Of a stretch of 64,000 nucleotides of DNA, positions 22,953-43,917 are shown one piece after another. Source of the DNA: an uncultured Bacillota bacterium (GTDB taxonomy: Bacteria; Bacillota; Clostridia; Christensenellales; Aristaeellaceae). Below the pieces are notes generated by a model. That model had not been told where the DNA came from, searched no databases, and saw only the letters and a program-made list of their open reading frames with translations. A program made the position numbers and the translations under genes. The stretch's first letter is position 1. Every line of letters begins with the position of its first letter. The stretch is from NCBI GenBank assembly GCA_963930055.1, contig CAWVKS010000008.1, positions 500,694-564,693 of the forward strand. The letters run 5' to 3'.

Positions 22953-25900
22953 TCAGGAGCGGACGAGGATGTCCGTCCAGTCCGCTACGTCGCACTGGCC
23001 ATGATCGTTATTGCCCACGGCCACCACCGTGCCGTCCGACTTCAGGCCTACGGTATGATTGCCCCCGGCGCTGACCGCTACGATGTCCGTCCAGTCCGCT
23101 ACGTCGCACCGGCCGTCGTAGAAGTCTTCTGTTAATTCTTTCGCCACCACCGTGCCGTCCGACTTCAGGCCTACGGTGTGAGCGTTCCCGGCTCTGACTG
23201 CTACGATGTCCGTCCAGTCCGCTACGTCGCACTGGCCGTATTCGTTATTGCCCGCGGCCACCACCGTGCCGTCCGACTTCAGGCCTACGGTATGCCCGCT
23301 CCCGGCGCTGACCGCTACGATGTCCGTCCAGTCCGCTACCTCGCACTGGCCATCACCGTTCCAGCCCACGGCCACCACCGTGCCATCCGACTTCAGGCCT
23401 ACGGTGTGAGCGTTCCCGGCGCTGACCGCTACGATGTCCGTCCAGTCCGCTACGCCGCACTGGCCGTATTCGTTATTGCCCACGGCTACCACCGTGCCGT
23501 CCGACTTCAGGCCTACGGTATGTCCGTTCCCGGCGCTGACCGCTACGATGTCCGTCCAGTCCGCTACGCCGCACCGGCCGTCATCGTTATAGCCCACGGC
23601 CACCACCGTGCCATCCGACTTCAGACCTACGGTATGATACCACCCGGCGCTGACCGCTACGATGTCCGTCCAGTCCGCTGCGTCGCACTGGCCGACTTCG
23701 TTATAGCCCACGGCCACCACCGTGCCGTCCGACTTCAGGCCTACGGTATGCCAGCTCCCGGCGCTGACCGTCTCCCGGTCTGTGACCTGCTCCCAGAGGG
23801 CGAAACTCCGCTCGCGCGCGTTGGAATAATCGCCAAGCTGGCCATACAGGATAGCCGCCGCACCCAGATCCCCCGCCGCTTCCATGGCTTCCGCCGGAGC
23901 GAAGCGTATCGCCTGCGCGCGCTCCGGGGCGTCCTCGTAGTCGCCCGCAGCTTCAAACTCCGCTGCCGCGCCATCGGCATCGCCTGCTGCCAGCAATTCC
24001 TCTGCATTGGCGTAGTGTATTGCCTGTATGCGCTTTGCCGCATCCTGATAATTTCCGGCCAAGGCAAACTCTGCAAGCGCGCCGCTATCGTCCCCCGCCG
24101 CAAGCAGCGCTTCCGCGTGAGCGTAGTGCGCCGCGAGAGCGCGCTCCGGGGCGTCCTCGTAGTTGCCCGCAGCTTCAAACTCCGCCGCCGCGCCATCGGC
24201 ATCGCCTGCCGCCAGCAATTCCTCTGCATTGGCGTAGTGTATTGCCTGTATGCGCTTTGCCGCATCCTGATAATTTCCGGCCAAGGCAAACTCTGCAAGC
24301 GCGCCGCTATCGTCCCCCGCCGCAAGCAGCGCTTCCGCGTGGGCGTAGTGGACTCCCAGCGCCCTTGCCGGGGCGTCGCTGTAATCGCCCAGCGCGGTGA
24401 AAGCAGCGAGGGCGGCATCGTATTCGCCATTGGTCAGCAGCGCTTCCGCGTGGGCGTAGTGCGACGCGAGAGCGCGCTCCGGGGCGTCCTCGTAGTTGCC
24501 CGCAGCTTCAAATTCCGCCGCCGCGCCGCTATCGTCCCCCGCCGCAAGCAGCGCTTCCGCGTGGGCATAGTGGACTCCCAGCGCCCTTGCCGGGGCGTCG
24601 CTGTAATCGCCCAGCGCGGTGAAGGCGGTTAGGGCGGCGTCGTATTCGCCATTGGACAGCAGCGCTTCCGCATGGGCATAGTGCGCCGCAAGAGCGCGCT
24701 CCGGGGCGTCCTCGTAGTTGCCCGCAGCTTCAAATTCCGCTGCCGCGCCAGCAGCATCACCTGCCGCGAGCAATTCCTCTGCCAGAGTATAGTGGTCAGA
24801 TAACATTCGCATTGCGCGATTGCTGAGTTTGATGTCCGTCCAGTCCGCTACCTCGCACTGGCCGTCACCGTTATCGCCCACGGCCACCACCGTGCCGTCC
24901 GACTTCAGGCCTACGGTATGTAAGCTCCCAGCGCTGACCGCTACGATGTCCGTCCAGTCATCTACGTCGCACTGGCCGGAACCGTTGCCACCCACGGCCA
25001 CCACCGTGCCGTCCGACTTCAGGCCTACGGTATGAGAACTCCCGGCGCTAATCGCTACGATGTCCGTCCAGTCATCTACGTCGCACTGGCCGTCACCGTT
25101 ATCGCCCACGGCCACCACCGTGCCGTCCGACTTCAGGCCTACGGTATGATAGCCCCCGGCGCTGACCGCTACGATATCCGTCCAGTCATCTACGTCGCAC
25201 TGGCCGGAATGGTTACTACCCACGGCCACCACCGTGCCGTCCGACTTCAGGCCTACGGTATGATTGTCCCCGGCGCTGACCGCTACGATGTCCGTCCAGC
25301 CCTCTACGTCGCACTGGCCGCGACCGTTATCACCCACGGCCACCACCGTGCCGTCCGGCTTCAGGCCTACGGTATGACTCCACTCGGCGCTGACCGCTAC
25401 GATGTCCGTCCAGTCCGCTACGTCGCACTGGCCGGCGTAAGTCCCGCCGTATCCGATATACTCTGTCGCCACCACCGTGCCGTCCGACTTCAGGCCTACG
25501 GTATGATAGCCCCCGGTGCTGACCGCTACGATGTCCCTCCAGTCCGCTACGTCGCACCGGCCGGAAGCGTTATCGCCCACGGCCACCACCGTGCCGTCCG
25601 ACTTCAGGCCTACGGTATGCCATCTCTCGGCGCTGACCGTCTCCCGGTCGGCGACCTGCTCCCAGAGGGCGAAACTCCGCTCGCGCGCGTTGGAATAATC
25701 ACCGCTCCGGCCATAAAGCATGGCCGCCGCAGTCAAATCGCCTTCCGCCTCTGCGGCTTCCGCGTGGGCGTAGTGCGCCGCGAGGGCGCGCTCCGGGGCG
25801 TCCTCGTAGTCGCCCATGGCCTCGAAGGCCTGCGCGGCCTGCGCGTATTCGCCGCTCGCGTAGAGGGCTTCCGCCGCCTGATAGTTTTGGGCGGGGATAT

Positions 25901-27908
25901 AGACCTGTGTGATGTACCACGCCGCGATGGCCGCGATGGCGATGAGAAGCACGACGATGATGATATTGCGCTTATGCACCCGCTCCGCGCGCTCTTCTTC
26001 CGCCGTTTCCCGCGCTTGCAGTTCCGCCGCTTTCGCCTGACACTGCTTTGCGCGCTCGGCACTGTCCTTGTAGGCGTTCAAGTTTTGAAACGCGCTGACA
26101 AGACTTACAAATGTGGCAGCTCTTTTCGCCTCCGCCTGTTTCCGGCAAAGCCCCTGATACTCCTCTTCCCGTTTCGCCTCCGCTTCCTGCGCTTTCAGCG
26201 TCTCCATGCGCTCCTGGCACTGCTGTGCGCGTTCGGCACTGTCCTTGTAGCCCCTCAGCGCCTTGAAGGAGTCGGTGAGGCTATGGTAAGTCTCTTTGTT
26301 TTTCGCCTCTGCCTGCTTCCGGCATAGCTCCTGATAGTAGGCTTCCCGATTGGCCTCCGCTTCCTTGCAGAGCGCCTCGGCCTTGCGGTCGGCTTCGTTC
26401 AGCGCCTGGGCGTAGGCCTCCCGCGCCGCTTTTTCGGCCTCGGCGTCGCGCTGGCGGGCGCTTTGCAGGGCGGCGGCCAGGGCGTCTGCACAGGCGCGGT
26501 CTTCGGCGGCGAGCTTTTCTTTGAACGCGCCGCGGGCAAAGCTGCGGGCGCGGCGCAGGTCGCGGTCGGCGTCCAACGACTGGCGCAGTTCCTCCAGCTT
26601 TTCCTGCCAGTAGCCCAGCACGGCCTGATACGGCTCCGGGAGGGGGTAGAGGACACGGATGTTTTCCTCCAGCAGATAGCCGGGCACGGCGAAGCGCGCT
26701 GCGGCGGCCTCGGCGCGCGCTGGGTCGGGCATTGCCGCCCGCGTGGGGACGCCCTTTTCCCCGCGTTGCAGGTATTTGACGCTCTCTTCCACATGCTGCG
26801 TCAGGCTTTGCGCGCCCACGCGGGCGAGGAATTTGCCGCGCCAGGCCTCGGCGCACTCGGCGTCCATATCCAGCGCGCGGTCGAAAAATTCGTTTGCCGC
26901 CTTCCATTCGCCGTCTTCCAGCGACATTTCGCCGCGCTTGAGCAGGGCGACGAGGTTGGACGCGCCCTCGCCCTGCACGACCACCGTTTCATGGGCCGGC
27001 TCCGGCTCCTTGTCCGCGTCCAGCACCTTGTTGACGCCGCGGATGAGGTCCTGCAAAAAGCCGATCTTGCTCATATCGTAGGCCTGCAATACGGAGAGCT
27101 GTTCCGGCAGGTCGTAGGGGTCCATATCGCGGTAGCAGGGCAGGAGCAGCTTCTTTTTGTCCTTTTTCATCAGGGCGAGGAAGCGGCTCCACTCGTTTTT
27201 CACCCACACGGCGTTGAAGTTGCGCGCGCTGGTGCCCACCACGATCATCACCTTGGTAGAGTTGAGTGCGGCGAAGATGTACGGCTCGTACTGCTGGCCG
27301 GCCTTGTCCTCCAGCGTGATGCGCGCGAAGAAGACGCGGCGGCCCTGCTCCGTGAGTTGATAGTAAATCTCCTGCGCCATGATGGAATCGCGCGTGCGCT
27401 GGCCGTTTTCGTCCGTCTCCTTGTAGCAGATGAAAACGTCGAAGGGCGCTTCGGTCTGCGAGGTGGCGAGGATGCCGCGCTGCACCTCGGCGATCTTCTC
27501 CGCGTCCTGCCGGTACTGGGCGCGGGTGACGCCATCGGAATGCTGGAGGGCGGCGAGGTAGTCCACGTCCTCGAGGAAGCTATCGAAGCTGGCGCGGTGG
27601 CAGGTGGGAAGATAAGCGTGGGTGGCGGGGTCTTCCACGTATTCGATGCCGAAGCGGCAGAGGGCGCAGCACCAGTGCGCCTCGGCGTCGGTTTCGTCTT
27701 CTTCGACGATGCGCTCGTACACGGCCAGCGCCTTGTCAAATTCGCCGATGCGGCGGAAGTAGTTGCCGCGGTTGAAGGCGTTGGCGCGCTGTTCGTCGTC
27801 TATTTTGGGGAAGGTCATGGTGGAGCCGCAACTGTCGCAGGTGCCGTAGGTGCGGTCCGGCGAAAGCTCTATGTCGCCGCCGCACATTTTGCATTTGATG
27901 ATGGTCAT
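22953..27908 (-). CDS. Zn-ribbon / TIR-domain giant protein (1651 aa), paralog 1: coiled-coil, single TM helix, TPR-like repeats and two RCC1-like beta-propeller arrays
   Basis: N-terminus CKMCGG…CDSCGS zinc ribbon. TIR core FDVFICYKETDENGQRTRDSIMAQEIYYQLTEQGRRVFFARITLED…MIVVGTS…WVKNEWSRF. Duplicated coiled-coil. TM RNIIIVVLLIAIAAIAAWYITQVYI. About 16 units HTVGLKSDGTVVAVG-N--GQCDV--W-DIVAVSAG (RCC1_2-like) in two blocks, separated by about 12 TPR-like 34-37-aa units. AGGAGG RBS. Confidence 0.85.
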   Translation of the reverse strand: MTIIKCKMCGGDIELSPDRTYGTCDSCGSTMTFPKIDDEQRANAFNRGNYFRRIGEFDKALAVYERIVEEDETDAEAHWCCALCRFGIEYVEDPATHAYLPTCHRASFDSFLEDVDYLAALQHSDGVTRAQYRQDAEKIAEVQRGILATSQTEAPFDVFICYKETDENGQRTRDSIMAQEIYYQLTEQGRRVFFARITLEDKAGQQYEPYIFAALNSTKVMIVVGTSARNFNAVWVKNEWSRFLALMKKDKKKLLLPCYRDMDPYDLPEQLSVLQAYDMSKIGFLQDLIRGVNKVLDADKEPEPAHETVVVQGEGASNLVALLKRGEMSLEDGEWKAANEFFDRALDMDAECAEAWRGKFLARVGAQSLTQHVEESVKYLQRGEKGVPTRAAMPDPARAEAAAARFAVPGYLLEENIRVLYPLPEPYQAVLGYWQEKLEELRQSLDADRDLRRARSFARGAFKEKLAAEDRACADALAAALQSARQRDAEAEKAAREAYAQALNEADRKAEALCKEAEANREAYYQELCRKQAEAKNKETYHSLTDSFKALRGYKDSAERAQQCQERMETLKAQEAEAKREEEYQGLCRKQAEAKRAATFVSLVSAFQNLNAYKDSAERAKQCQAKAAELQARETAEEERAERVHKRNIIIVVLLIAIAAIAAWYITQVYIPAQNYQAAEALYASGEYAQAAQAFEAMGDYEDAPERALAAHYAHAEAAEAEGDLTAAAMLYGRSGDYSNARERSFALWEQVADRETVSAERWHTVGLKSDGTVVAVGDNASGRCDVADWRDIVAVSTGGYHTVGLKSDGTVVATEYIGYGGTYAGQCDVADWTDIVAVSAEWSHTVGLKPDGTVVAVGDNGRGQCDVEGWTDIVAVSAGDNHTVGLKSDGTVVAVGSNHSGQCDVDDWTDIVAVSAGGYHTVGLKSDGTVVAVGDNGDGQCDVDDWTDIVAISAGSSHTVGLKSDGTVVAVGGNGSGQCDVDDWTDIVAVSAGSLHTVGLKSDGTVVAVGDNGDGQCEVADWTDIKLSNRAMRMLSDHYTLAEELLAAGDAAGAAAEFEAAGNYEDAPERALAAHYAHAEALLSNGEYDAALTAFTALGDYSDAPARALGVHYAHAEALLAAGDDSGAAAEFEAAGNYEDAPERALASHYAHAEALLTNGEYDAALAAFTALGDYSDAPARALGVHYAHAEALLAAGDDSGALAEFALAGNYQDAAKRIQAIHYANAEELLAAGDADGAAAEFEAAGNYEDAPERALAAHYAHAEALLAAGDDSGALAEFALAGNYQDAAKRIQAIHYANAEELLAAGDADGAAAEFEAAGDYEDAPERAQAIRFAPAEAMEAAGDLGAAAILYGQLGDYSNARERSFALWEQVTDRETVSAGSWHTVGLKSDGTVVAVGYNEVGQCDAADWTDIVAVSAGWYHTVGLKSDGTVVAVGYNDDGRCGVADWTDIVAVSAGNGHTVGLKSDGTVVAVGNNEYGQCGVADWTDIVAVSAGNAHTVGLKSDGTVVAVGWNGDGQCEVADWTDIVAVSAGSGHTVGLKSDGTVVAAGNNEYGQCDVADWTDIVAVRAGNAHTVGLKSDGTVVAKELTEDFYDGRCDVADWTDIVAVSAGGNHTVGLKSDGTVVAVGNNDHGQCDVADWTDILVRS

Positions 27909-27926
27909 GGGCGCTCCTCCTGCGTA

Positions 27927-30401
27927 TCAGCGTTTGGTAAGGTCGGTCTTTTCCGAGCGGACGGCGGCGAGGCGCTCCTCGATCTCGCGGCGGCGTTTGC
28001 CGGTGAAGAGACCGCGGAGGGAGGCAAGCTCGTTTTGCAGGCGCGTTTCCTCGGCGGCGAGGGCGGCGAGGCGCTGCTGGCGGGCTTGTTCGGCAAGGCG
28101 GGCTTGTTCGGCGGCGCGACGGGCTTCCTCCTCGGCGCGACGGCGGGCTTCCTCCTCGGCGCGACGAGATTCTTCTTCGCGGCGGCGGGCTTCCTCCTCG
28201 GCGCGACGGGCTTCTTCGGCACGTTCTGATTCCAACATGCTAAAATTGTTAAAGAGTTTCCAGCCTTTTACGTCGCACTGGCCGCCATCGTCACCGCCCA
28301 CGGCCACCACCGTGCCGTCCGACTTCAGGCCTACGGTATGATGGTTCCCAGCGCTGACCGCTACAATGTCCGTCCAGTCCACTACGCCGCACTGGCCGTA
28401 TTTGTTATTGCCCACGGCCACCACCGTGCCGTCCGACTTCAGACCTACGGTATGATAGTCCCCGGCGCTGACCGCTACGATGTCCCTCCAGTCCGCTACG
28501 TCACACTGGACGTAATCGTTATTGCCCACGGCCACCACCGTGCCGTCCGACTTCAGGCCTACGGTATGATACATCCCGGCGCTGACCGCTACGATGTCCG
28601 TCCAGTCCGCTGCGTCGCACTGGCCGTATTTGTTCCGGCCCACGGCCACCACCGTGCCGTCCGACTTCAAGCCTACGGTATGACTCCACCCGGCGCTGAC
28701 CGCTACGATGTCCGTCCAGTCCGCTACGTCGCACTGGCCGTAATGGTTACCGCCCACGGCTACCACCGTGCCGTCCGACTTCAGGCCTACGGTATGATAG
28801 TCCCCGGCGCTGACCGCTACGATGTCCGTCCAGTCCGCTACGTCGCACTGGCCGTATTTGTTCCGGCCCACGGCCACCACCGTGCCGTCCGACTTCAAGC
28901 CTACGGTATGACTCCACCCGGCGCTGACCGCTACGATGTCCCTCCAGTCCGCTACGCTGCACTGGCCGTCATCGTTCCAGCCCACGGCCACCACCGTGCC
29001 GTCCGACTTCAGGCCTACGGTATGATGGTTCCCAGCGCTGACCAACGCCCTCGCGGGGCTTATCTTCTCGTGGACTTCTTTCACTTTCTGAATGTGTTTT
29101 TCGCGCTCAATGCGTTCACGTTCACGTTCGCGTTCACGCCGCGCTTCTTCCTCGGCAATGCGCTTCTTCTGCTCCATGTCCATACATTTCTGCACGTCTT
29201 CCAGCCAATTCAGCAAGTCCCCCTGCGCGAATTGCCGCGCGCGCTCAAAAGCCTTGTCCGGCGCATGGCGCAGCGAAATAAGCTCCTCGCGGTATTCTTC
29301 CCGCGAATGCGCCTTCGCTTTGCCCATGGCGACGCCCAGATAGGCCTCGGCCTTTTGCGGGTCGATATTCAGCGCCTGCTCGAAGAAATCGTTGGCCTTT
29401 TGCCATTCGCCATCTTCCAGCGCCATGTTGCCGCGCGTGACCAGCGTGTCCGCCGTGCCGCCGCCCGCCGCCTGCACGATGACCGGCTGCGCCGCCTGTA
29501 CCGCGCCTTTGCCCAGCAGCTTTTCCACGCCGCGCACCAAATCCTGCACCGCCCCCAGCTTGCCCATGTCCTGCCCCTGCAGGTGGGCAAATTCCTTCGG
29601 CATGTCGTAGGCGTCCACGCCCTTGTAGCAGGGAATCAGGTGCTTCTTCTGCCCCGAGGCGATGAGCGCCAAAAAGCGGCTCCATTCGTTCTTTACCCAC
29701 ACGGCGTTGAAGTATTCATAGTCCGTGCCGAATACGAGCATCACCTTGGCGCTGTTCAGCGCCGCGAAGATGTACGGCTCGTATTCCGTGCCCAATTTGT
29801 CCTCCAGCGTGATGCGCGAGAAGAAAACGCGATAGCCCTTCTCCGTCAGGGCGTCGTACACCTCCTGCGCCATCACGCTATCCGGCGTGCGCTCGCCGTT
29901 TTCGTCGGTTTCCTTGTAGCAGATGAAGATGTCGTAGGGCTGTTCCTTGCCCGACAGTTCCACGATGCGGCGACGGATGTCCTCAATGGCCTTGGCTTCC
30001 TCGCGGTACACCTTGCGCGAAACGGCGTCGGCGTTCTCCTGCGCCTGTTCAAAGTCCGGGTCCTCCAGGATGCTCTCGAAGGACGAGCGGTGGCAGGTGG
30101 GTATCTTTTTGCCGGTGGCCGGGTCGTCCACGTATTCGATGCCGTAACGACAGAGCACGAGGCCCCAGTAGGCCTCCGCCTCGGTGGGAAACTCGGCGAC
30201 GATGCTTTCGTACACCGAAGCCGCCTTGTCGAATTCGCAGGCCGCGCGCAGGCGGTTGGCCCGCGCGAACAGCGTCAGCTTCTTTTCGTTGTCCGCCGTG
30301 GGCACCGTCTGCCGCGTGCCGCAGTATTCGCACTCCGCCACGGTCATGCCCGCTTCGATATTCAGGTCGCCCCCGCACATTTTGCATTTGATGATGGCCA
30401 T
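27927..30401 (-). CDS. Zn-ribbon / TIR-domain protein (824 aa), paralog 2: TIR + about 7 RCC1-like repeats + C-terminal Arg/Glu coiled-coil, no TM helix
   Basis: First about 290 aa are near-identical to the 33935-37303 product (zinc ribbon, TPR, TIR: YDIFICYKETDENGERTPDSVMAQEVYDALTEKGYRVFFSRITLED…). Then ERERERE, RCC1-like blades, and an EEARRAEEEARR coiled-coil tail. GGGAAGGGGA RBS. Confidence 0.85.
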   Translation of the reverse strand: MAIIKCKMCGGDLNIEAGMTVAECEYCGTRQTVPTADNEKKLTLFARANRLRAACEFDKAASVYESIVAEFPTEAEAYWGLVLCRYGIEYVDDPATGKKIPTCHRSSFESILEDPDFEQAQENADAVSRKVYREEAKAIEDIRRRIVELSGKEQPYDIFICYKETDENGERTPDSVMAQEVYDALTEKGYRVFFSRITLEDKLGTEYEPYIFAALNSAKVMLVFGTDYEYFNAVWVKNEWSRFLALIASGQKKHLIPCYKGVDAYDMPKEFAHLQGQDMGKLGAVQDLVRGVEKLLGKGAVQAAQPVIVQAAGGGTADTLVTRGNMALEDGEWQKANDFFEQALNIDPQKAEAYLGVAMGKAKAHSREEYREELISLRHAPDKAFERARQFAQGDLLNWLEDVQKCMDMEQKKRIAEEEARRERERERERIEREKHIQKVKEVHEKISPARALVSAGNHHTVGLKSDGTVVAVGWNDDGQCSVADWRDIVAVSAGWSHTVGLKSDGTVVAVGRNKYGQCDVADWTDIVAVSAGDYHTVGLKSDGTVVAVGGNHYGQCDVADWTDIVAVSAGWSHTVGLKSDGTVVAVGRNKYGQCDAADWTDIVAVSAGMYHTVGLKSDGTVVAVGNNDYVQCDVADWRDIVAVSAGDYHTVGLKSDGTVVAVGNNKYGQCGVVDWTDIVAVSAGNHHTVGLKSDGTVVAVGGDDGGQCDVKGWKLFNNFSMLESERAEEARRAEEEARRREEESRRAEEEARRRAEEEARRAAEQARLAEQARQQRLAALAAEETRLQNELASLRGLFTGKRRREIEERLAAVRSEKTDLTKR

Positions 30402-30422
30402 ATGTATCCCCTTCCCAATTTT

Positions 30423-31112
30423 TTACTTGTTCAGTTTGCAGAGCCGGTTTCTTTCCGCGAGCAGGGCGGCGGTTTTGCGGCAGAGTTCGAGCACGCCGTC
30501 GCCATCGCCATCGGTGAGGGCGCGCTCCATGCTGTCCATGCAGGCGCGCAGGTCGGCTTCCAGCGGCGCGGTGGCGGCGTTGCTGACGGGGTCGCTGAAG
30601 CGGAATTCATCGGCGAGCTTTTTCAGCTGCGCGCACACCGCCTCGCCCTGCGCCTGGCCCGCCAGCGCCCCGGCGCGGGACTGCAATTCGCGCATGGCGG
30701 CGACGTCCTTTTGCAGATGGACGTCCTGACGGCGAATCTCATCGCGGATGGCGGAGGCGGCCATGCAGCCGATGGCCGCCAGCACGAAGATGACCGCTTC
30801 CACCACCAGCGCCGCCCAGAGGGGAATCCAAACGCTCAGCGCCATGCACAGCAGGCCGACGACGGCCTGCGCCAGCAGATAGACGAGTGCCAGCTGGGCG
30901 ATGGGGAAGCCATAGAGGCTATCGCGCGCCCCGCCCTTGGGGGTGAAGGCGTAAAGCGACAGAGGCAATTGCGCGACGATGGCCGCGCTGGTAAAGGCGT
31001 AGGCCAGCCAGAAGACAGGCGTGCGCACGAAGGGAATGGCAAAAGCGATGACATTAAAGAGCGCCAGCAGCAGCACGACGGTCGCGGCGACGCGCGCGAT
31101 GTTCTTTTTCAT
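30423..31112 (-). CDS. Small integral membrane protein (4 predicted TM helices + C-terminal coiled-coil)
   Basis: Hydrophobic segments (VAATVVLLLALFNVIAFAIPF; VFWLAYAFTSAAIVAQLPL; LALVYLLAQAVVGLLCMALSV; LWAALVVEAVIFVLAAIGC) followed by a helical soluble tail. AGAGGGAGG RBS. Confidence 0.6.
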   Translation of the reverse strand: MKKNIARVAATVVLLLALFNVIAFAIPFVRTPVFWLAYAFTSAAIVAQLPLSLYAFTPKGGARDSLYGFPIAQLALVYLLAQAVVGLLCMALSVWIPLWAALVVEAVIFVLAAIGCMAASAIRDEIRRQDVHLQKDVAAMRELQSRAGALAGQAQGEAVCAQLKKLADEFRFSDPVSNAATAPLEADLRACMDSMERALTDGDGDGVLELCRKTAALLAERNRLCKLNK

Positions 31113-31115
31113 GGT

Positions 31116-32885
31116 TTAACCCTCCCTCTTTTTGCCGCAGTTGGGGCAGAAGTTCGAGACGATTCCCTTTTGGCCACAGTCCGGGCAAGTCCAGCCCGTA
31201 TCCGGCGCGGGGCGCTTGTGGCCGCAGTTGGGGCAGAAATTCGATGTGATGCCCTTCTGGCCGCACTCCGGGCACGTCCAGCCCATATCCGGCGCGGGAC
31301 GCTTGTGGCCGCAGTTCGGGCAGAAGTTCGAGGCGATGCCCTTCTGGCCGCACTCCGGGCAATCCCAGCCATTCGGGGCGATGGCCCCGCCCACGGCCCT
31401 GCCCATCTGCGCGGCAGCATCCATGACGGGGTTGAGCGCGTCCTTGGTCATGCCGACCACGCTGCCCATGGCCCCGAGGGTGACGCCAAGTCCGGCGAGG
31501 TCGCCAAGGCCGCCGACTGCGCCGCCGCCATTGCCGGTGATGCCGTTTTGCATGGCCTCCAGACCCACCTGACGGGCGGTTTCCTGCTGGTAGGTATAGC
31601 CCTTCATGCGCATTTCCTCGGCTTCGGCGGCGGCCTTCATGCGGTAGGCCTCGGCTTCGGCCTGTTTCTGTATCTTCAGGGCTTCGGCCTCGCCCTGCGC
31701 GCCGATGATCTTCATCTGCGCGGCGGTTTGCGCCTCCACGGCCTTGCGGCGGGCGGCGGCTTCGGCCTCGCGGCGACGGATTTCCTCCTGGCGCACGCCG
31801 AGATACTGTTCGGCAAACTGTTCCTTCATGCGGCGGAAGTTGGGGTCGTCGTCCGGCGTGACCACGCGGCTGACGAAAAACTCCGCCATTTCCAGACCGT
31901 ATTCGGCCAGGCGGGGGTTGATCTTTTCGCGCAGAGCCTCGCTCAGCTCCATCAGCCGCTCGTCGATTTCCAGCACGCTGATGCCCTTTTCGCGGATGGC
32001 CGCAGCCAGATAGCTCTTCACCTGCGTCATCACCATGGCGCGGAAAAAACCCTTGCCGCCGCCGAGCAAATCCTCCTGCCGCAGGGTGGAAGTGGTGCCC
32101 ACCACGCGCAAAAGCAGCTTGCGGGCGTTGACCACGCGAATGTTGAATTCGCCGCTGGCGCCCAGTTCCACGTGCAGGCCGCTGGTGGGGTCAAAGAGGC
32201 GCACCTTGCTGTCCGTGCCCCACTTCACGCCCATCTGCGTGGCCATATTGATGAAGTAGACCTCGGAATGGAAGGTGCCCTCGGTGTCCGTGGGCAGCTT
32301 ATAGAGCTTTTCCAGCATGGGCAGCTGCTGCGTTTCCAGCGTGTAGCGGCCCGCGCCGAAGGCGTCCAGCGCCTGCCCGTCGCGGAAGAAGATGGCTTCC
32401 TGGCTTTCGTGGACGATGAGCTGGGAGCCGAGGTTGAAGTCCTCGATGGGGTGTTTCCAGACCAGCGTGTCGCCGTCGCCCTCGTATTTGATGATGCTGG
32501 CCAGGCCGTCCTGACGGATTTGTTCGGCCTTGAGGCGCTCGACGACGTCGTTTTCAAAATCGCACACCGGGCAGACATAGCGCTCCGCCCCGCGCGCCAC
32601 GCGCAGGCGCACGCCGCACTGACGGCAGGAAAACTCCACCGCCTTGGTCTGTTCGGCCATGGTGTTGATGGCCTCGCCGCAGACGGGGCAGCGCGCGTCC
32701 GCCCCCTTGGACTGGTCGAAAACCACATTGTTGCCGCAATGGGGGCAGGTGCGGCTGGCCATTTTGTCCGTGCGGACGTTGATGGTATAGCCGCAGGCGC
32801 AGTCGATCTTCTTGCGGGCGAAAAAGCCCGTCTTTGCTTCCACGTATTTCCCGCAGCGCGGGCATTCGATGACGAATTTGGCCAT
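31116..32885 (-). CDS. SPFH/band-7 (Band_7_1, YdjI-like) protein with six zinc-ribbon modules
   Basis: Three N-terminal CxxC…CxxC ribbons, a central SPFH-like core, a coiled-coil (…REAEAAARRKAVEAQ…) and three tandem C-terminal repeats GW(D/T)CP(E/D)CGQKGI.SNFCPNCG(H/K)KR. Start at MAKFV with a GAGGGA RBS; the track's start is MRENTMAKF at 32900. Confidence 0.8.
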   Translation of the reverse strand: MAKFVIECPRCGKYVEAKTGFFARKKIDCACGYTINVRTDKMASRTCPHCGNNVVFDQSKGADARCPVCGEAINTMAEQTKAVEFSCRQCGVRLRVARGAERYVCPVCDFENDVVERLKAEQIRQDGLASIIKYEGDGDTLVWKHPIEDFNLGSQLIVHESQEAIFFRDGQALDAFGAGRYTLETQQLPMLEKLYKLPTDTEGTFHSEVYFINMATQMGVKWGTDSKVRLFDPTSGLHVELGASGEFNIRVVNARKLLLRVVGTTSTLRQEDLLGGGKGFFRAMVMTQVKSYLAAAIREKGISVLEIDERLMELSEALREKINPRLAEYGLEMAEFFVSRVVTPDDDPNFRRMKEQFAEQYLGVRQEEIRRREAEAAARRKAVEAQTAAQMKIIGAQGEAEALKIQKQAEAEAYRMKAAAEAEEMRMKGYTYQQETARQVGLEAMQNGITGNGGGAVGGLGDLAGLGVTLGAMGSVVGMTKDALNPVMDAAAQMGRAVGGAIAPNGWDCPECGQKGIASNFCPNCGHKRPAPDMGWTCPECGQKGITSNFCPNCGHKRPAPDTGWTCPDCGQKGIVSNFCPNCGKKREG

Positions 32886-32896
32886 GGTGTTTTCCC

Positions 32897-33889
32897 TCAC
32901 TTCTCTGTTGTGTTGCGGTCGGTCTGCATATCCTCGATGGCGGTTTGGTAGAAGGCGCGGAAGAAGGCGGATCCGTCATAGGCCTTGCCAGCGCAACTCA
33001 ACGTGTCCTCGTCAAAGCCCAGGCCGCGCACGTCCGCGCCGTAGACCTTCAGAAGTTCGTGTTTGACGGTTTCCTGAGCGCATTTCGGCGCATAAAACAC
33101 CGTCTTTCCATGGTGGGCGCGCTCGCGCTTTTTGCGGTTCAGCAGCCACCAGAAATCCCATTCGGAAAAATCGCTGCCGAAGCCGAGTATGTAGACGTCG
33201 CCCATGATGAAAGCGTCCAGCCAGCTTTCCAGCAGCGGCGGCTGGCCGTTTTGCTGGCGCTCGCGCTGCTCGTCGGCGCGCGCGGAGAGGTGCTTGTCGT
33301 AGTTTTGGAGCAGCTTGCCGTAGAGATAATGGCCGAGGATGACGCTCTCGGGCTTGCGCGCCTCGCCGTGGATGTGCCAAATCTTCTGTTCGCGCCCTTC
33401 GCGAACGACGGCGTTGTAGGTGTGCAGAAGGTATTTCGTCTCCGCGTGCTGGCTCGTGTGGCGCATGGCCGCCTTGAAGGGGCATTTTTTATGGAGGCAC
33501 TTCCCCTGCGGGCAGAGGCGCGCCTCGAGGGCGGGGTCGGCGGCGCATTCCAGCTCATAGCTGTAATTTGTGGTCAGTATATGGTCAAAACCCATGTTCC
33601 AAACGGGTTCCAGCGCCGCGCGCAGGGCGGAAAGCCCCCGCAGGCAGCAGAGCGCGGCGCGGTTTTCGCGTATGGCCGCATCCACCGCGTCTTTTGTGCC
33701 CAGCACCACTTGCAGCGGGAAGGGAATCCCCGCAACCTGCGGGTTTTCATGGGAAATGCTGTCGTTCTTCCAGAAGTTTTTGATGAGCCCTCCCCAGCTT
33801 TCGCCGCCAAAGGCGCGGTTCAGGCCGTTGCCCAGCAGCAGAACTTGGGGATAGACGTCCTGCGGGCCTTGCGTGCTGTTGTATTCCAT
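32897..33889 (-). CDS. SIR2-like domain protein (SIR2_2/DUF4020 type, standalone, about 330 aa)
   Basis: …VLLLGNGLNRAFGG… Rossmann-like start. Catalytic-type motifs ILTTNYSYE (TTNY Asn) and IWHIHGE (His). …ILGFGSDFSEWDFWWLL… typical of the bacterial SIR2_2 family. No SLOG/Macro domain follows. GGAAAGG RBS before ATG 33889. Confidence 0.8.
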   Translation of the reverse strand: MEYNSTQGPQDVYPQVLLLGNGLNRAFGGESWGGLIKNFWKNDSISHENPQVAGIPFPLQVVLGTKDAVDAAIRENRAALCCLRGLSALRAALEPVWNMGFDHILTTNYSYELECAADPALEARLCPQGKCLHKKCPFKAAMRHTSQHAETKYLLHTYNAVVREGREQKIWHIHGEARKPESVILGHYLYGKLLQNYDKHLSARADEQRERQQNGQPPLLESWLDAFIMGDVYILGFGSDFSEWDFWWLLNRKKRERAHHGKTVFYAPKCAQETVKHELLKVYGADVRGLGFDEDTLSCAGKAYDGSAFFRAFYQTAIEDMQTDRNTTEK

Positions 33890-33934
33890 GTTTGGCCAAC
33901 CTTTCCGGCGCAATGCGCGCCTGTGCATTGGGGG

Positions 33935-36900
33935 TTACTGGCGGACGAGGATGTCGGACCAGGTGGAGACGCCATAGTTTCTGCCCACAGCCACTACCGT
34001 GCCGTCGGATTTCAGGCCCACTGTATGCCAGAATCCAGCGCTGACCGCCACGATGTCTGTCCAGTCCTCTACGTCGCACTCGCCATCCTGGTTGCTGCCC
34101 ACAGCCACCACCGTGCCGTCCGACTTCAGGCCCACTGTATACCAGTTTCCAGCGCTGACCGCCACGATGTCTGTCCAACCCTCTACGTCGCACTGGCCAT
34201 GGTAATTATCGCCCACAGCCACCACCGTGCCGTCCGACTTCAGGCCCACGGTATGTCTGTTCCCAACGCTGACCGCCACGATGTCTATCCAGCCCTCTAC
34301 GTCGCACTGGCCATAGCCATTATCGCCCACAGCTACCACCGTGCCGTCCGACTTCAGGCCCACGGTATGTTCGTATCCAGCGCTGACCGCCACGATGTCT
34401 GTCCAATCCTCTACGTCGCACTGGCCATCGTAATCCTCGCTGTCTCCGGTATACTCTGTCGCCACCACCGTGCCATCTGACTTTAGGCCCACTGTATGCC
34501 GGTCTCCAGTGCTGACTGCCACGATGTCTATCCAGCCCTCTACGTCGCACTGGCCATGGTAAAACTTGCTGTCTGCGTTATACTCTGTCGCCACCACCGT
34601 GCCGTCCGACTTCAAGCCCACGGTATAGCTCATAAAAACGCCACCCCCAGCGCTGACCGCCACGATGTCTGTCCAGCCCTCTACGTCGCACTCGCCATCG
34701 TAATTATAGCCCACAGCCACCACCGTGCCGTCCGACTTCAGGCCCACGGTATGATATCCCCCAGTGCTGACCGTCTCCCTGTCGGCGATTTGTTCCCAGA
34801 TGGCGAAACTCCGTTCCCGCGCGCCGGGATAATCGCCAAGCTGGCCGTACAGGATGGCCGCCGCGCCCAGATTTCCTTCTGCCTCCATGGCTTCCGCCGG
34901 TGCGAAGCGAATTGCCTGCGCGCGTTCCAATGCGTCTTCATAGTCGCCTGCGGCCTCGAATGCCGTTGCTGCGCCGTCGGTGTCGCTCGCCGCAAGCAGC
35001 GCTTCCGCCTTGGCGTAGTGCGTTGCCAGTATGCGCTCCGACGCATCCTCATAGCTGTCTGCGGCCTCAAATTCCGCAATCGCTCCGTCGTAATCCCCCG
35101 CCGCCAGCAGCGCTTCCGCCTGTGCGTAGTGCGTTACCGGTATGCGTTCCGACGCATCCTCATAGCTGCCTGCGGCCTCAAATTCCGCAATCGCTCCGTC
35201 ATAGTCCCCTGCCGCCAACAGCTCTTCCGCCTTGGCGTAGTGTACGCCCGGTATGCGCTGCGGGGCGTCGTTGTAGTTCCCCAGCGCTGCAAATTCCGCC
35301 AGCGCGCCGTCATAGTCCCCCGCCGTTTGTAGGGCGTCCGCGTAGGCATAACGCGCCTGGAGCATGCGGGATGTGGCGTCTTTGTATCCGCCTATGGCTT
35401 CAAACGCCTGTGCCGCCTCCTCATATTGGCCGCTCTCGTAGAGTTCTTCCGCTGCCTGATAATTCTGGGAGGGGATAAATATTTGCGTAATGTACCACAA
35501 CGCTACCGCCGCGATGGCGATTAGGAGCACGGCGATGATGATATTGCGCTTGCGCTTCCTTGCCTGCTCCTGCGCATGCTGCAGCGCCACCTGCTCCTGC
35601 TTATCTCTCAAATCACGACATTGCTTTGCGCGCTCGGCGCTGTCTTTATAGTCTTTCAGGCGTCTAAAGTCACTGCTGAGGTCTGCAAATTCGTATGCGG
35701 TTTTCGCCTCCGCCTGCTTCTTGCAAAGCAGCTGGTAGTCCTCTTCCCGGCGCGCTTCAGCTTGGTGGAAAAGTTCCTCCGCCTTGCGGTCGCACTCGTC
35801 CAGCGCCTGAGCGTAGGCCTTGCGCGCCGCTTCCTTTGCCTGCGCGTCGCGGCGCTCCGCCTGTTGCACGCACTCGTTCCAGCGGCTCTCAAAGGCCCGT
35901 TCCCCCGATTCCAGCTGCTCATTGAAAGGCCCGGCGGCGAAATGGCGCGCTTTTTTCATGTCGCTGTCGTTGGCGAATTTGGCCCGGTTTTGATTGCTTG
36001 TCGACAGCCAGTAGTCCGCCACTGAAGTATACGGCTTGGGCGGCGCGTATTGGGCGCGGATTTCGCTTTCCGTCAGGTAATTCTCGATGGCAAAGCGCTT
36101 GACCGCCGCGTCGGCGCGGGATTTGTCCGCCTGCGCGGCTTCTTTGGACACGCTCTTTTCGGCCCGTTTGGCGCGCTCGATCTGCTCCGCCGCGTACTGG
36201 GCGATGCCACTTGTCTGCACGCGGGCGAGAAATTTGCCCAAATAGGCCTCGGCGCATTCGGCGTTCATGTCCAGCACGCGGTCGAAGAACTCGTCCGCCG
36301 CCTTCCAGTTGCCGTCGCTCAGCGCCATGTTGCCGCGCTTGAGCAGGGCGTCGCCGGAAACGCCGCCCGCCGCCTGGACGACAACCTGCTGCGCGCTCTG
36401 CGCCGCGCCCTTGCCCAGCAGCTTTTCCACGCCGCGCACCAGATCCTGCACAGCGCCCAGCTTGCCCATGTCCTGCCCTTGCAGGTGGGTAAACTCCTTC
36501 GGCATGTCATAAGCGTCCACGCCCTTGTAGCAGGGAATCAGGTGCTTCTTCTGCCCCGAGGCGATGAGCGCGAGGAAGCGGCTCCATTCGTTCTTTACCC
36601 ACACGGCGTTGAAGTATTCATAGTCCGTGCCGAACACCAGCATCACCTTGGCGCTGTTCAGCGCCGCGAAGATGTACGGCTCGTATTCCGTGCCCAACTT
36701 GTCCTCCAGCGTGATGCGTGAGAAGAAGACCCGATAGCCCTTCTCCGTCAGGGCGTCGTACACCTCCTGCGCCATGACGCTGTCCGGCGTGCGCTCGCCG
36801 TTCTCGTCCGTCTCCTTGTAGCAGATGAATATGTCATAGGGCTGTTCTTTCCCCGACAGTTCCACGATGCGGCGGCGGATGTCCTCGATGGCCTTCGCTT

Positions 36901-37303
36901 CCTCGCGGTACACCTTGCGCGAAACGGCGTCGGCGTTCTCCTGAGCCTGTTCAAAGTCCGGGTCCTCCAGGATGCTCTCGAAGGACGAGCGGTGGCAGGT
37001 GGGTATCTTTTTGCCGGTGGCCGGGTCGTCCACGTATTCGATGCCGTAGCGGCAGAGGACGAGGCCCCAATATGCCTCCGCTTCGGTGGGGAACTCGGCG
37101 ACGATGCTTTCGTACACCGCGGCCGCCTTGTCGAATTCGCAGGCCGCGCGCAGGCGGTTGGCGCGGGCAAACAGCGTCAGTTTCTTCTCATTGTCCGCCG
37201 TGGGCACCGTCTGCCGCGTGCCGCAGTATTCGCACTCCGCCACGGTCATGCCCGCCTCGATGTTCAGGTCGCCTCCGCACATCTTGCACTTGATGATGGC
37301 CAT
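33935..37303 (-). CDS. Zn-ribbon / TIR-domain giant protein (1122 aa), paralog 3: coiled-coil, single TM helix, TPR-like repeats and an RCC1-like propeller
   Basis: Same head as paralog 2. TM RNIIIAVLLIAIAAVALWYITQIFI. About 10 TPR-like units, then about 9 RCC1-like blades. GGGAGGAAGAG RBS. Confidence 0.85.
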   Translation of the reverse strand: MAIIKCKMCGGDLNIEAGMTVAECEYCGTRQTVPTADNEKKLTLFARANRLRAACEFDKAAAVYESIVAEFPTEAEAYWGLVLCRYGIEYVDDPATGKKIPTCHRSSFESILEDPDFEQAQENADAVSRKVYREEAKAIEDIRRRIVELSGKEQPYDIFICYKETDENGERTPDSVMAQEVYDALTEKGYRVFFSRITLEDKLGTEYEPYIFAALNSAKVMLVFGTDYEYFNAVWVKNEWSRFLALIASGQKKHLIPCYKGVDAYDMPKEFTHLQGQDMGKLGAVQDLVRGVEKLLGKGAAQSAQQVVVQAAGGVSGDALLKRGNMALSDGNWKAADEFFDRVLDMNAECAEAYLGKFLARVQTSGIAQYAAEQIERAKRAEKSVSKEAAQADKSRADAAVKRFAIENYLTESEIRAQYAPPKPYTSVADYWLSTSNQNRAKFANDSDMKKARHFAAGPFNEQLESGERAFESRWNECVQQAERRDAQAKEAARKAYAQALDECDRKAEELFHQAEARREEDYQLLCKKQAEAKTAYEFADLSSDFRRLKDYKDSAERAKQCRDLRDKQEQVALQHAQEQARKRKRNIIIAVLLIAIAAVALWYITQIFIPSQNYQAAEELYESGQYEEAAQAFEAIGGYKDATSRMLQARYAYADALQTAGDYDGALAEFAALGNYNDAPQRIPGVHYAKAEELLAAGDYDGAIAEFEAAGSYEDASERIPVTHYAQAEALLAAGDYDGAIAEFEAADSYEDASERILATHYAKAEALLAASDTDGAATAFEAAGDYEDALERAQAIRFAPAEAMEAEGNLGAAAILYGQLGDYPGARERSFAIWEQIADRETVSTGGYHTVGLKSDGTVVAVGYNYDGECDVEGWTDIVAVSAGGGVFMSYTVGLKSDGTVVATEYNADSKFYHGQCDVEGWIDIVAVSTGDRHTVGLKSDGTVVATEYTGDSEDYDGQCDVEDWTDIVAVSAGYEHTVGLKSDGTVVAVGDNGYGQCDVEGWIDIVAVSVGNRHTVGLKSDGTVVAVGDNYHGQCDVEGWTDIVAVSAGNWYTVGLKSDGTVVAVGSNQDGECDVEDWTDIVAVSAGFWHTVGLKSDGTVVAVGRNYGVSTWSDILVRQ

Positions 37304-37305
37304 CT

Positions 37306-37530
37306 CTACTCTTCCTCCCGCTTTTGTGTGGTTTGGGGTATGTCAAGGTGTTCCAGCGCGAACTCCAATGCCAACGAGATCAACTCGTTGCGCGTCCGCC
37401 CTGTCTTCTCCGCGGCATCGTCCAGCGCCTGCAACATGTCACGCGGTATCCGCATGGACACTACCGTGGACGCGGCCGTGTACTTGCGGGGCGTTATCTG
37501 CAATTTGGGAATGTTTTTCCTTTCCAACAT
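37306..37530 (-). CDS. Ribbon-helix-helix (CopG/Arc-like) DNA-binding protein, first gene of the operon
   Basis: …VVSMRIPRDMLQALDDAAEKTGRTRNELISLALEFALEHL… RHH fold signature. AAGGA RBS before ATG 37530. Its stop lies 2 nt before the start of the downstream TIR gene. Confidence 0.6.
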   Translation of the reverse strand: MLERKNIPKLQITPRKYTAASTVVSMRIPRDMLQALDDAAEKTGRTRNELISLALEFALEHLDIPQTTQKREEE

Positions 37531-37555
37531 CTTCACGTCCTTTGCGTTAAGTGTA

Positions 37556-37567
37556 ATACAAATGTAT
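37556..37567. promoter_or_regulatory. 12-bp palindrome ATACAAATGTAT in the operon promoter region (candidate RHH operator)
   Basis: Perfect inverted half-sites ATACA/TGTAT. It lies 26-37 bp upstream of the RHH start, between TTGACT-like and TACACT-like hexamers on the minus strand. Confidence 0.3.
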
Positions 37568-37671
37568 GCGGAAGTCAAGGCTTTGCAAGGGGTGGTTTTG
37601 ACGTCACTTTGTAAGAACGATTTTGCAGTGCAGAGCATCCACACATGTGCAAACAAAAATGGGCGCATGAA

Positions 37672-42368: not shown

Positions 42369-42458
42369 GGAGGTCGCTCCTGTTCTATGATTTTGCGGGT
42401 CGGTCGTGCGGCGATTACGCATGATATTCTAGAGTTTATCAGACCTGCACTCATTCTT

Positions 42459-43864: not shown

Positions 43865-43917
43865 CGGTCGTATATAAAAGAATATGTGTCGTATATACTT
43901 GACACATAACCGATTTT

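What the first reader, a model, noticed from the sequence alone, without database searches (positions are those of the whole stretch)
29530..30401. Near-identical about 870-nt 'head' module shared by two TIR genes with unrelated tails (second copy 36430-37303)
The first about 290 codons (zinc ribbon, TPR, TIR) of the genes at 27927-30401 and 33935-37303 differ at only about 2 residues and are near-identical at DNA level. After that the proteins diverge completely (soluble RCC1 plus coiled-coil versus TM plus TPR plus RCC1). The third gene's head is only about 50% identical. This points to recent duplication and recombination of a conserved effector head onto different sensor tails. The repeat also provides a 0.87-kb direct-repeat substrate for deletion of the intervening SIR2/SPFH genes.
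Basis: seen in the sequence. Interest (0 to 1): 0.6.

Follow-up and report, generated by a model that had tools for sequence, protein, structure and literature searches.

The report
Shared TIR head kept alike by conversion
Two neighbouring genes of a gut Clostridia bacterium carry almost the same 300-residue TIR "head" on different tails; the cause is strong selection plus repeated copying between the two genes, not a recent duplication, which resembles how mammalian TLR1 and TLR6 keep their TIR regions alike.

Summary
The repeat is real but was described too strongly. Codons 1-300 of gene B (27927-30401, minus strand) and gene C (33935-37303, minus strand) differ at 2 residues. The DNA is only 94.3% identical: 51 differences, 48 of them synonymous and spread along the head (dS 0.29, dN 0.004, dN/dS 0.015).

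The same gene order, RHH-C-SIR2-SPFH-4TM-B-A, occurs in four further lineages. There the tails group by position (110 informative sites against 1), while the heads group by genome (23 against 5). Heads of close strains are mosaics with runs of 20-25 consecutive sites copied from the resident paralogue. So the head evolves in concert, by repeated patchy gene conversion confined to the first ~900 nt. The tract ends in a predicted disordered linker.

The tails are not unrelated. C aligns with gene A along its whole length, and all three genes share RCC1-like repeats. No deletion between the repeats was seen in the six contigs examined.

The head (zinc ribbon, helical region, TIR with an invariant WxxxE) belongs to a large uncharacterised family in gut and rumen Clostridia. 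The family forms tandem arrays with variable tails, usually next to an SPFH/zinc-ribbon gene. Its function (an NAD-consuming receptor-like system) is inferred only.

The parts
29502..30401 (-). Head of gene B, codons 1-300: zinc ribbon (C6, C9, C24, C27), helical region, TIR (residues 158-281, WxxxE at W235-E239). This is repeat copy 1.
   Evidence: identity, dN/dS; TIR_2, 44.6 bits against a cut-off of 28; invariant residues; model pLDDT 84.9; TIR fold matches AbTir 7uxu with target-normalised TM-score 0.77.
36404..37303 (-). Head of gene C, codons 1-300. This is repeat copy 2, with 849 of 900 nt and 298 of 300 residues identical to copy 1.
29460..29507 (-). Linker of B (residues 299-314), predicted disordered. 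It is the 3' limit of the homogenised tract. The matching stretch in C is about 36362-36409.
   Evidence: pLDDT below 50 for residues 299-314; informative-site support switches at nt ~900.
27927..29501 (-). Tail of gene B: one TPR, a charged coiled coil, seven RCC1-like repeats and a C-terminal charged repeat. No transmembrane segment.
   Evidence: It is orthologous by position to the B tails of L080, L083, L084 and L085.
33935..36403 (-). Tail of gene C: one TPR, a coiled coil, a single transmembrane segment near residue 585, TPR-like 37-residue repeats and RCC1-like repeats. It aligns with gene A along its whole length.
   Evidence: It is orthologous by position to the C tails of related loci.
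22953..27908 (-). Gene A, the third paralogue (1651 aa). Its head is of a second type, 57% identical to B and C. It has a transmembrane segment near residue 644 and two TPR-like plus RCC1 blocks.
30423..31112 (-). 229-residue protein of unknown family. Its N-terminal half is hydrophobic (about four membrane helices by eye), followed by a helical C-terminal part. It is a conserved neighbour.
   Evidence: sequence; no family match; present in 19 of 29 loci of at least 20 kb.
31116..32900 (-). SPFH (Band_7_1) protein with N-terminal zinc ribbons and three C-terminal tandem zinc-ribbon units. It is the most constant neighbour of the family.
   Evidence: Band_7_1, E 3.8e-39; 57-78% identity in other genomes; 24 of 29 loci.
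32897..33928 (-). SIR2_2-like protein, an optional component of the operon.
   Evidence: 27.7 bits against a cut-off of 24.5; 4 of 29 loci.
37306..37668 (-). Ribbon-helix-helix protein directly upstream of C. It is probably the operon's regulator.
   Evidence: RHH_1; an RHH gene lies just upstream of the first TIR gene in many loci.

Best explanation
The two ~900-nt repeats encode the conserved N-terminal signalling module of a multigene family. The module comprises a zinc ribbon, a helical region and a TIR domain. Genes C and B lie in one operon (RHH-C-SIR2-SPFH-4TM-B-A), and each had its own tail already in the common ancestor of the sampled lineages.

Two processes keep their heads almost identical in protein:
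1. Very strong purifying selection, with dN/dS of 0.015-0.06. The head is the most constrained part of the operon.
2. Repeated, patchy gene conversion between the two heads. The tracts are a few hundred nt long. They start near the ATG and never pass the disordered linker at codon ~300, where homology ends.

In the window's genome the last homogenisation is old (dS 0.29). In sister strains it is more recent (dS 0.10-0.19).

Inferred, not shown:
- The TIR is an NAD+-cleaving domain activated by oligomerisation.
- The variable tails are ligand-binding sensors. Those of C and A would be displayed outside the membrane, and that of B would be cytoplasmic.
- Identical heads are needed because different sensors feed into one shared assembly or partner, probably the membrane-associated SPFH/4TM core.
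For: Shown:
- Between B and C, 48 of 51 head differences are synonymous, giving dS 0.29 and dN 0.0043. dN jumps to 0.30 straight after codon 300.
- Four more lineages have the same gene order (L080, L083, L084, L085).
- In the four-sequence comparison with L080, sites in nt 1-900 support grouping by genome 23 times, grouping by position 5 times and the third split 3 times. In nt 901-1290 the counts are 1, 110 and 2.
- L080, L083 and L084 differ by dS 0.04-0.06 in the SPFH and 4TM genes. Their positionally orthologous heads differ by dS 0.14-0.25.
- The heads are mosaics. L083_C follows its orthologue at nt 210-300, then follows its own paralogue for 25 consecutive informative sites (nt 327-886; runs test P < 1e-4). 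L084_C follows its paralogue for 20 sites (nt 279-744).
- Among eight heads, 111 of 134 variable sites are third codon positions, and no pair differs by more than 6 of 300 residues.
- dN/dS is 0.11 for SPFH, 0.23 for the 4TM gene, 0.40 for SIR2 and 0.25-0.55 for the C tail.
- The boundary coincides with predicted disordered residues 299-314.
- The pattern is general in the family. Co-located paralogues in eight other genomes have heads 91-98% identical in protein at dS 0.5-1.0, and identity collapses at residues 300-350.
- The TIR assignment rests on the Pfam score, the fold match to AbTir, MAL and SPARTA TIR domains, and the invariant W235, N238 and E239.

Published analogue: independent gene conversions keep a ~300-residue region that includes the TIR domain alike in TLR1 and TLR6 (PMC2077338).
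Against: - The four-sequence split cannot show on its own that conversion happened in the window's own lineage. Conversion in the sister lineage alone gives the same unrooted tree. A relative-rate count taken only suggests it: W_B matches W_C rather than L080_C at 33 sites, against 19 the other way, P about 0.05 by my own hand calculation.
- A head copied onto one of the genes shortly before the lineages split would give the same picture for the window.
- Some mosaic tracts could have come in by recombination between strains rather than within a genome. Tail alleles clearly do reassort between strains.
- No experiment or transcript data support the functional part. PADLOC and NCBIfam give no hits above threshold.
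Confidence: 0.8

Rival explanations
1. A recent duplication of the head was followed by recombination onto an unrelated tail. That leaves a young 0.87-kb direct repeat, which is mainly a substrate for deleting the genes in between.
For: The protein heads differ at 2 of 300 residues and similarity ends abruptly. The nearest head in the GTDB species representatives (one genome per species) is only 84% identical, so the pair looks specific to this lineage at that sampling.
Against: Head dS is 0.29, with differences spread evenly and a longest identical run of 104 nt. The same two genes with the same tails are present in lineages whose flanking genes differ by dS 0.16-0.34. No deletion product was seen in six contigs.
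Confidence: 0.05
2. These are old paralogues with no gene conversion. The two heads have simply diverged under extreme purifying selection since an old duplication, and the grouping by genome is noise or parallel codon change.
For: dN/dS of 0.015-0.06 alone explains the near-identical protein at dS 0.1-0.4. In other genomes, paralogous heads stay 91-98% identical at dS 0.5-1.0.
Against: Site support is 23:5:3 in the head against 1:110:2 just after it. Orthologous heads of near-identical strains are 3-5 times more diverged than their flanks. Long runs matching the paralogue give P < 1e-4. The closely related genomes should share codon usage (not measured here), so parallel change is unlikely.
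Confidence: 0.08
3. One of the two heads, or one whole gene, came in from a related strain or species by horizontal transfer and allelic recombination. On this view the two copies are xenologues rather than converted paralogues.
For: Alleles at this locus do reassort between strains. The B tail is 97.6% identical between the window and L083, the C tail 93.7% between the window and L084, and the A heads of L083 and L084 differ by dS 0.35 while their SPFH genes differ by dS 0.045. An integrase, a transposase and prophage genes flank the island.
Against: The mosaic tracts match the paralogue resident in the same genome. The within-genome B-C distance is the smallest, or tied for smallest, in most genomes: 22-51 differences against 23-77 between genomes. 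An imported tract still needs an earlier exchange between B-type and C-type heads somewhere in the population.
Confidence: 0.07

Closest known systems
Concerted evolution of mammalian TLR1 and TLR6 (Kruithof et al. 2007, PMC2077338)
   Same: These are tandem paralogues with diverged ligand-binding parts. A delimited region of about 300 residues that includes the TIR domain is more alike between paralogues than between orthologues. This arises through independent gene conversions in several lineages, and the authors attribute it to shared binding partners.
   Different: Here the converted module is N-terminal and includes a zinc ribbon and a helical domain. The genes are bacterial, lie in one operon and are separated by three other genes. 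No partner is known.
Thoeris (ThsB TIR plus ThsA SIR2) and other bacterial TIR defence systems
   Same: A TIR protein with the WxxxE motif is encoded next to a SIR2-like gene in a variable island. The likely chemistry is NAD+ cleavage or signalling.
   Different: No PADLOC hit passes threshold, and the only Thoeris-related NCBIfam hit is 19 bits against a cut-off of 220. Pfam matched only SIR2_2 in the SIR2-like protein, with no SLOG or Macro domain, and that gene is present in only 4 of 29 loci. The constant partners are an SPFH/zinc-ribbon protein and a 4TM protein. The heads are far more conserved than is usual for defence genes.
Modular immune receptors with a constant signalling domain and variable repeat sensors (plant TIR-NLRs, animal TLRs, bacterial Avs/NLR-like proteins)
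   Same: A conserved TIR head is joined to repeat-rich variable domains. The genes form tandem arrays of paralogues, repeat numbers vary, and alleles reassort. About half of the family has an inside-head, transmembrane, outside-repeat topology, like a TLR in reverse order.
   Different: There is no NTPase (NB-ARC, NACHT or STAND) module. The sensors are RCC1-like propellers and TPR-like repeats. No ligand or phenotype is known.
B. subtilis pspA-ydjGHI type SPFH/zinc-ribbon membrane-stress modules (from my own knowledge, not tested here)
   Same: An SPFH (Band_7_1) protein is combined with zinc-ribbon and small membrane proteins.
   Different: Here the zinc ribbons are fused to the SPFH protein, no PspA gene was seen, and the module is tied to TIR genes.

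Membership tests
TIR domain (Pfam TIR_2, PF13676) | Profile score above the curated cut-off | tested here: met
   B scores 44.6 bits, C 44.3 and A 40.2, against a cut-off of 28.
TIR domain (Pfam TIR_2, PF13676) | Flavodoxin-like TIR fold | tested here: met
   The AlphaFold model has pLDDT 84.9. Foldseek matches AbTir 7uxu (target-normalised TM-score 0.77, rmsd 3.1 Å), MAL, MyD88 and SPARTA TIR-APAZ, all with probability 1.00.
TIR NADases | Catalytic glutamate in the WxxxE motif of helix alpha-C | tested here: inconclusive
   W235-V-K-N-E239 is present, and W235, N238 and E239 are invariant in 56 sequences. Equating E239 with the catalytic Glu rests on my knowledge of the motif, not on a residue-level structural superposition.
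TIR NADases | NAD+ cleavage activity | not testable with these tools
   This needs an enzyme assay.
Concerted evolution by gene conversion | Paralogues are more alike than orthologues in a delimited region, while the flanks follow orthology | tested here: met
   Informative sites give 23:5:3 in nt 1-900 and 1:110:2 in nt 901-1290.
Concerted evolution by gene conversion | Mosaic tracts, significantly clustered, with different limits in different lineages | tested here: met
   L083_C has a tract at nt 327-886 (25 sites). L084_C has one at nt 279-744 (20 sites). Runs tests give P < 1e-4 to 0.03.
Recent segmental duplication | Near-zero synonymous divergence, and absence from sister lineages | tested here: not met
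   dS is 0.29. The arrangement is present in L080, L083, L084 and L085.
Thoeris and other catalogued TIR defence systems | Match to the system's curated protein models | tested here: not met
   PADLOC gives nothing below E = 1e-3 for B or C. The best NCBIfam hit is Thoeris ThcB4 at 19.4 bits against a cut-off of 220.
Thoeris and other catalogued TIR defence systems | ThsA-type partner (SIR2 or TM fused to SLOG or Macro) always present | tested here: not met
   Pfam matches only SIR2_2 in the 343-residue protein. That gene is present in 4 of 29 loci.
Invertible or shufflon-type cassette switching of 3' ends | Inverted repeats at cassette borders and a dedicated recombinase | tested here: not met
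   No inverted repeats of 40 nt or more were found in 20000-48000. All genes are on one strand, and both genes have complete heads.

The most novel reading that the evidence does not exclude
The operon would be a widespread, undescribed receptor-like TIR system of gut and rumen Clostridia. Several sensors with exchangeable tails, some displayed outside the cell in a TLR-like topology, would need the same TIR head because the heads co-assemble with each other or on the SPFH/4TM membrane scaffold. Gene conversion would then be the selected means of keeping the sensors compatible while the tails diversify and reassort between strains.
Probability: 0.25. Interest if true: 0.8.

Novelty: new variant of a known kind. 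Interest (0 to 1): 0.5.

Why it matters
- It is a clean bacterial example of domain-limited concerted evolution in an immune-type signalling domain, parallel to TLR1/TLR6. This suggests a general rule: paralogous sensors that share downstream machinery keep their signalling domain homogenised.
- It draws attention to a large gene family that none of the libraries or literature searches used here describe. There are more than 575 relatives in the GTDB species representatives (one genome per species) and 2,827 protein clusters in the large protein collection. Its constant neighbour is an SPFH/zinc-ribbon protein, and in about half of the 129 family proteins taken from the retrieved loci a single transmembrane segment would put the repeat tail outside the cell.
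- The family is abundant in gut and rumen Clostridia, where few defence or sensing systems have been studied.
- It also gives a practical caution. Near-identical protein repeats can hide substantial synonymous divergence, so protein identity alone does not date a duplication.

Tried and rejected
- **Assembly collapse or mis-assembly:** rejected. The identical locus occurs on 5 contigs, and the two copies differ by 6%.
- **Invertible cassettes or shufflon:** no inverted repeats were found.
- **Polymorphic-toxin logic (constant N-terminus, variable C-terminal toxin plus immunity gene):** the tails are RCC1 and TPR repeats, and no small gene of the kind that encodes an immunity protein follows them.
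- **Nucleotide-level constraint such as an embedded RNA or regulatory element:** rejected, because third codon positions vary freely, at 111 of 134 variable sites.
- **Very recent patch conversion in the window genome:** the longest identical run, 104 nt, is not significant (P = 0.08).
- **Phage or plasmid origin of the family:** no hit in INPHARED or PLSDB, and one hit in IMG/VR.
- **Known defence catalogues:** no hits above threshold in PADLOC or NCBIfam.
- **Sequence search of the PDB with the head profile:** it found only TPR proteins matching the post-linker TPR, and no TIR.
- **Literature searches:** terms combining TIR with SPFH, RCC1, zinc ribbon or Clostridia found no description of this family.
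- **Two head types:** my split into types I and II is too coarse, because at least a third type, about 62% identical, exists.
- **Source organism:** the window's species could not be named. The best head in the GTDB species representatives is 84% identical, from Pseudoflavonifractor capillosus.
Full report
**What is at the coordinates**

Three long genes lie on the minus strand. They are A (22953-27908, 1651 aa), B (27927-30401, 824 aa) and C (33935-37303, 1122 aa).

Three genes sit between B and C:
- a 229-residue protein with no family match and a hydrophobic, probably four-helix membrane N-terminal half (30423-31112);
- an SPFH/Band_7_1 protein with several zinc ribbons (31116-32900);
- a SIR2_2-like protein (32897-33928).

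A ribbon-helix-helix gene (37306-37668) abuts the start of C. The gaps between genes are 0-21 nt, or the genes overlap. No convincing minus-strand terminator lies between them. The seven genes therefore look like one operon.

**Checking the observation**

The first 300 codons of B and C align without gaps and differ at two residues, S62A and A272T. The DNA differs at 51 of 900 positions (94.3% identity). Of these, 48 are synonymous and nearly all are at third codon positions.

By the Nei-Gojobori method, dS is 0.29, dN is 0.0043 and dN/dS is 0.015. The two halves of the head give the same values. In codons 301-345, dN rises to 0.30. The differences are spread evenly. The longest identical run is 104 nt, and a permutation test gives P = 0.08. 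The sequences upstream of the two start codons are unrelated.

The repeat is therefore real and far beyond chance, but "near-identical at DNA level" overstates it.

"Unrelated tails" is also too strong:
- C aligns with A over its whole length at about 50% identity.
- B and C share a TPR just after the linker.
- All three genes carry RCC1-like 38-residue repeats. These are about 70% identical in protein between B and C. In DNA they are 87% identical between B and A.

The architectures do differ. C and A have one transmembrane segment followed by TPR-like and RCC1 repeats. B has none, and it ends in a charged coiled coil.

The head of A is 57% identical to those of B and C.

**Not an artefact**

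The locus is 100% identical to an ENA metagenome contig (L081 and L082). The exact B and C proteins occur together on five contigs of up to 740 kb.

**Related loci**

The head has more than 575 relatives among the GTDB species representatives (one genome per species) and 2,827 clusters in the large protein collection. All of those examined are gut or rumen Clostridia, including Oscillospiraceae, Lachnospiraceae, Acutalibacteraceae and Christensenellales. Protein identity to the B head is 73-84%.

The genes form tandem arrays of 2-5 per 20 kb, with tails of 390-1691 residues.
- Of the 129 family proteins extracted, 60 have a transmembrane segment after the head and 37 have at least three RCC1-like motifs.
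- The SPFH gene is present in 24 of 29 loci of at least 20 kb, the 4TM gene in 19, an RHH gene in 13 and the SIR2-like gene in 4.
- The family is absent from the phage and plasmid collections and has one hit in IMG/VR.

**Orthologous loci and the key test**

Four further lineages have the same order, RHH-C-SIR2-SPFH-4TM-B-A. These are L080, L083, L084 and L085. L086 is a fragmented copy of the window's arrangement.

The window lineage differs from the others by dS 0.16-0.34 in the SIR2, SPFH and 4TM genes. L080, L083 and L084 are close to each other: dS is 0.02-0.06 in the SPFH and 4TM genes and 0.06-0.14 in SIR2.

I compared B and C of the window with B' and C' of L080, counting informative sites for each possible grouping:

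| Region | By genome (BC \| B'C') | By position (BB' \| CC') | Third split |
|---|---|---|---|
| nt 1-900 | 23 | 5 | 3 |
| nt 901-1290 | 1 | 110 | 2 |

The tails are orthologous by position, so both genes and their tails predate the split of the lineages. The heads follow a different history.

Among the three close strains, positionally orthologous heads differ by dS 0.14-0.25. That is three to five times their flanks. Paralogous heads within a genome differ by dS 0.12-0.19, and by 0.10 in L085.

The variable-site matrix shows shared blocks, and runs tests confirm mosaics:
- L083_C follows its orthologue at nt 210-300. It then follows its own paralogue at 25 consecutive informative sites, nt 327-886 (P < 1e-4).
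- L084_C follows its paralogue at 20 consecutive sites, nt 279-744.
- L080_C keeps an ancestral C-type patch at nt 376-468, shared with the window's C.

No tract passes nt ~900. This is repeated, patchy gene conversion limited to the head.

**Selection**

Among eight heads, 111 of 134 variable sites are third codon positions, and no pair differs at more than 6 of 300 residues. Head dN/dS is 0.015-0.06. The other values are 0.11 for SPFH, 0.23 for the 4TM gene, 0.40 for SIR2 and 0.25-0.55 for the C tail.

The same signature is general in the family. It has three parts: paralogous heads 91-98% identical in protein, dS of 0.5-1.0, and a collapse of identity at residues 300-350. It recurs in eight other genomes. 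Purifying selection alone could therefore explain near-identical protein. Conversion is needed to explain the conflict between head and tail histories and the mosaics.

**Structure**

An AlphaFold model of B residues 1-360, built from a 56-sequence alignment, has a mean pLDDT of 84.9. It shows:
- a zinc-ribbon-like hairpin region;
- helical hairpins;
- a TIR fold, best matched by AbTir 7uxu (target-normalised TM-score 0.77), MAL and the SPARTA TIR-APAZ protein;
- a disordered stretch at residues 299-314;
- then a TPR.

The conversion limit therefore falls in an inter-domain linker. W235, N238 and E239 are invariant. From my own knowledge, the E of WxxxE is the catalytic glutamate of bacterial TIR NADases. 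I did not check the equivalence by superposition.

**Interpretation**

*Shown.* The repeat is the conserved head of two long-established paralogues. It is kept alike by strong purifying selection and recurrent gene conversion. The last homogenisation in the window genome is old.

*Unresolved.* Whether the window lineage itself underwent conversion after the split is only suggested. The evidence is a relative-rate count of 33 against 19 sites, P about 0.05 by my own hand calculation. A head transfer just before the split would look the same.

*Inferred.* The TIR head is an oligomerisation-activated NAD+-cleaving module, and the tails are sensors. The tails of C and A would lie outside the membrane, because positively charged residues (RKRKR) sit on the N-terminal side of the transmembrane segment. 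Identical heads would be needed for a shared assembly or partner.

The closest published analogue is the TLR1/TLR6 pair. There, independent conversions keep a ~300-residue region that includes the TIR domain alike, and this was attributed to shared partners (PMC2077338).

**Deletion hypothesis**

The repeats are direct, and they demonstrably exchange sequence. Identical runs of 59-104 nt remain. No deletion derivative appeared among the six contigs examined, and the SPFH gene is the family's most constant neighbour. Such deletions are therefore probably selected against, or simply unsampled.

**Comparison with known systems**

- The head is a TIR domain by score and by fold.
- The locus is not a catalogued defence system. 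In particular it is not Thoeris: there is no model match, the SIR2-like gene is optional, and Pfam finds no SLOG domain in it.
- Five literature searches found no description of the family.
- The evolutionary mechanism is a known kind. The gene family and its SPFH-centred operon appear undescribed.

**Verdict**

It is an interesting but not extraordinary case of domain-limited concerted evolution, found in an uncharacterised and widespread TIR family.

Noticed in passing
window 23029-25767, 28189-29172, 33876-34626: There are 24 in-register copies of a 114-nt (38-residue) RCC1-like repeat spread over genes A, B and C. B's repeat region is 87% identical in DNA to A's but only about 76% to C's, so the repeats seem to undergo their own homogenisation. 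Repeat numbers differ between strains.
   Followed up: partly
window 23869-24867 and 34872-35315: A and C carry 111-nt (37-residue) TPR-like repeats. Copy number appears to vary between strains, and C is 979-1127 aa long in relatives.
   Followed up: partly
window 31128-31388: The SPFH gene ends with three tandem 87-nt units (74-85% identical to the reference unit), each encoding one zinc ribbon. Related loci show variable numbers of matching segments.
   Followed up: no
window 28090-28230: The C-terminus of B contains 21-24-nt tandem repeats that encode a charged, Glu/Ala/Arg-rich (AEEEARR-like) coiled coil.
   Followed up: no
window 17893-20554, 39069-40298, 41463-47427: Mobile-element genes flank the operon. 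Downstream of gene A lie a tyrosine integrase and a gene that the ENA record tags YonV_C-like (my Pfam scan of it found nothing). Upstream of the RHH gene lie a Mutator/IS256-type transposase, a PG_binding_1 protein with a weak NlpC/P60 match, and a prophage tail endopeptidase with 30-nt periodic repeats at 46549-47129. In L083 the upstream flank is different and includes a glycine-cleavage T protein.
   Followed up: partly
L080, L083, L084, L085 compared with window 22953-37303: Alleles reassort between strains. The B tail is 97.6% identical between the window and L083. The C tail falls into two classes, about 82.5% identical between classes and 94-97% within. The A heads of L083 and L084 differ by dS 0.35 although their SPFH genes differ by dS 0.045. 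This suggests frequent recombination or balancing selection at the locus.
   Followed up: partly
Family-wide (L001-L079), and window genes C and A: About half of the family (60 of 129 proteins) has one transmembrane segment 200-350 residues after the head. Positive charges lie on its N-terminal side in C. The TIR would then be cytoplasmic and the repeat tail outside the cell, a TLR-like layout in reverse order.
   Followed up: partly
L080 10001-12218: The B orthologue in L080 is called as only 427 aa, yet the DNA alignment to the window's B continues for another ~900 nt. This is probably a frameshift, either a pseudogene or a long-read consensus error. The A orthologue there is also fragmented.
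   Followed up: no
L043 3096-9985; L009 11767-20148; L076 3442-12900: Other genomes hold three tandem genes whose heads are 91-98% identical in protein at dS 0.6-1.0, with unalignable tails. The shared-head pattern is therefore a property of the family, not of this window.
   Followed up: yes
L001-L079 heads: The B/C-type head is 73-84% identical in protein across different families of Clostridia (Oscillospiraceae, Lachnospiraceae, Christensenellales). That is unusually conserved for a gene in a variable island. It points to tight constraint, horizontal spread, or both.
   Followed up: no
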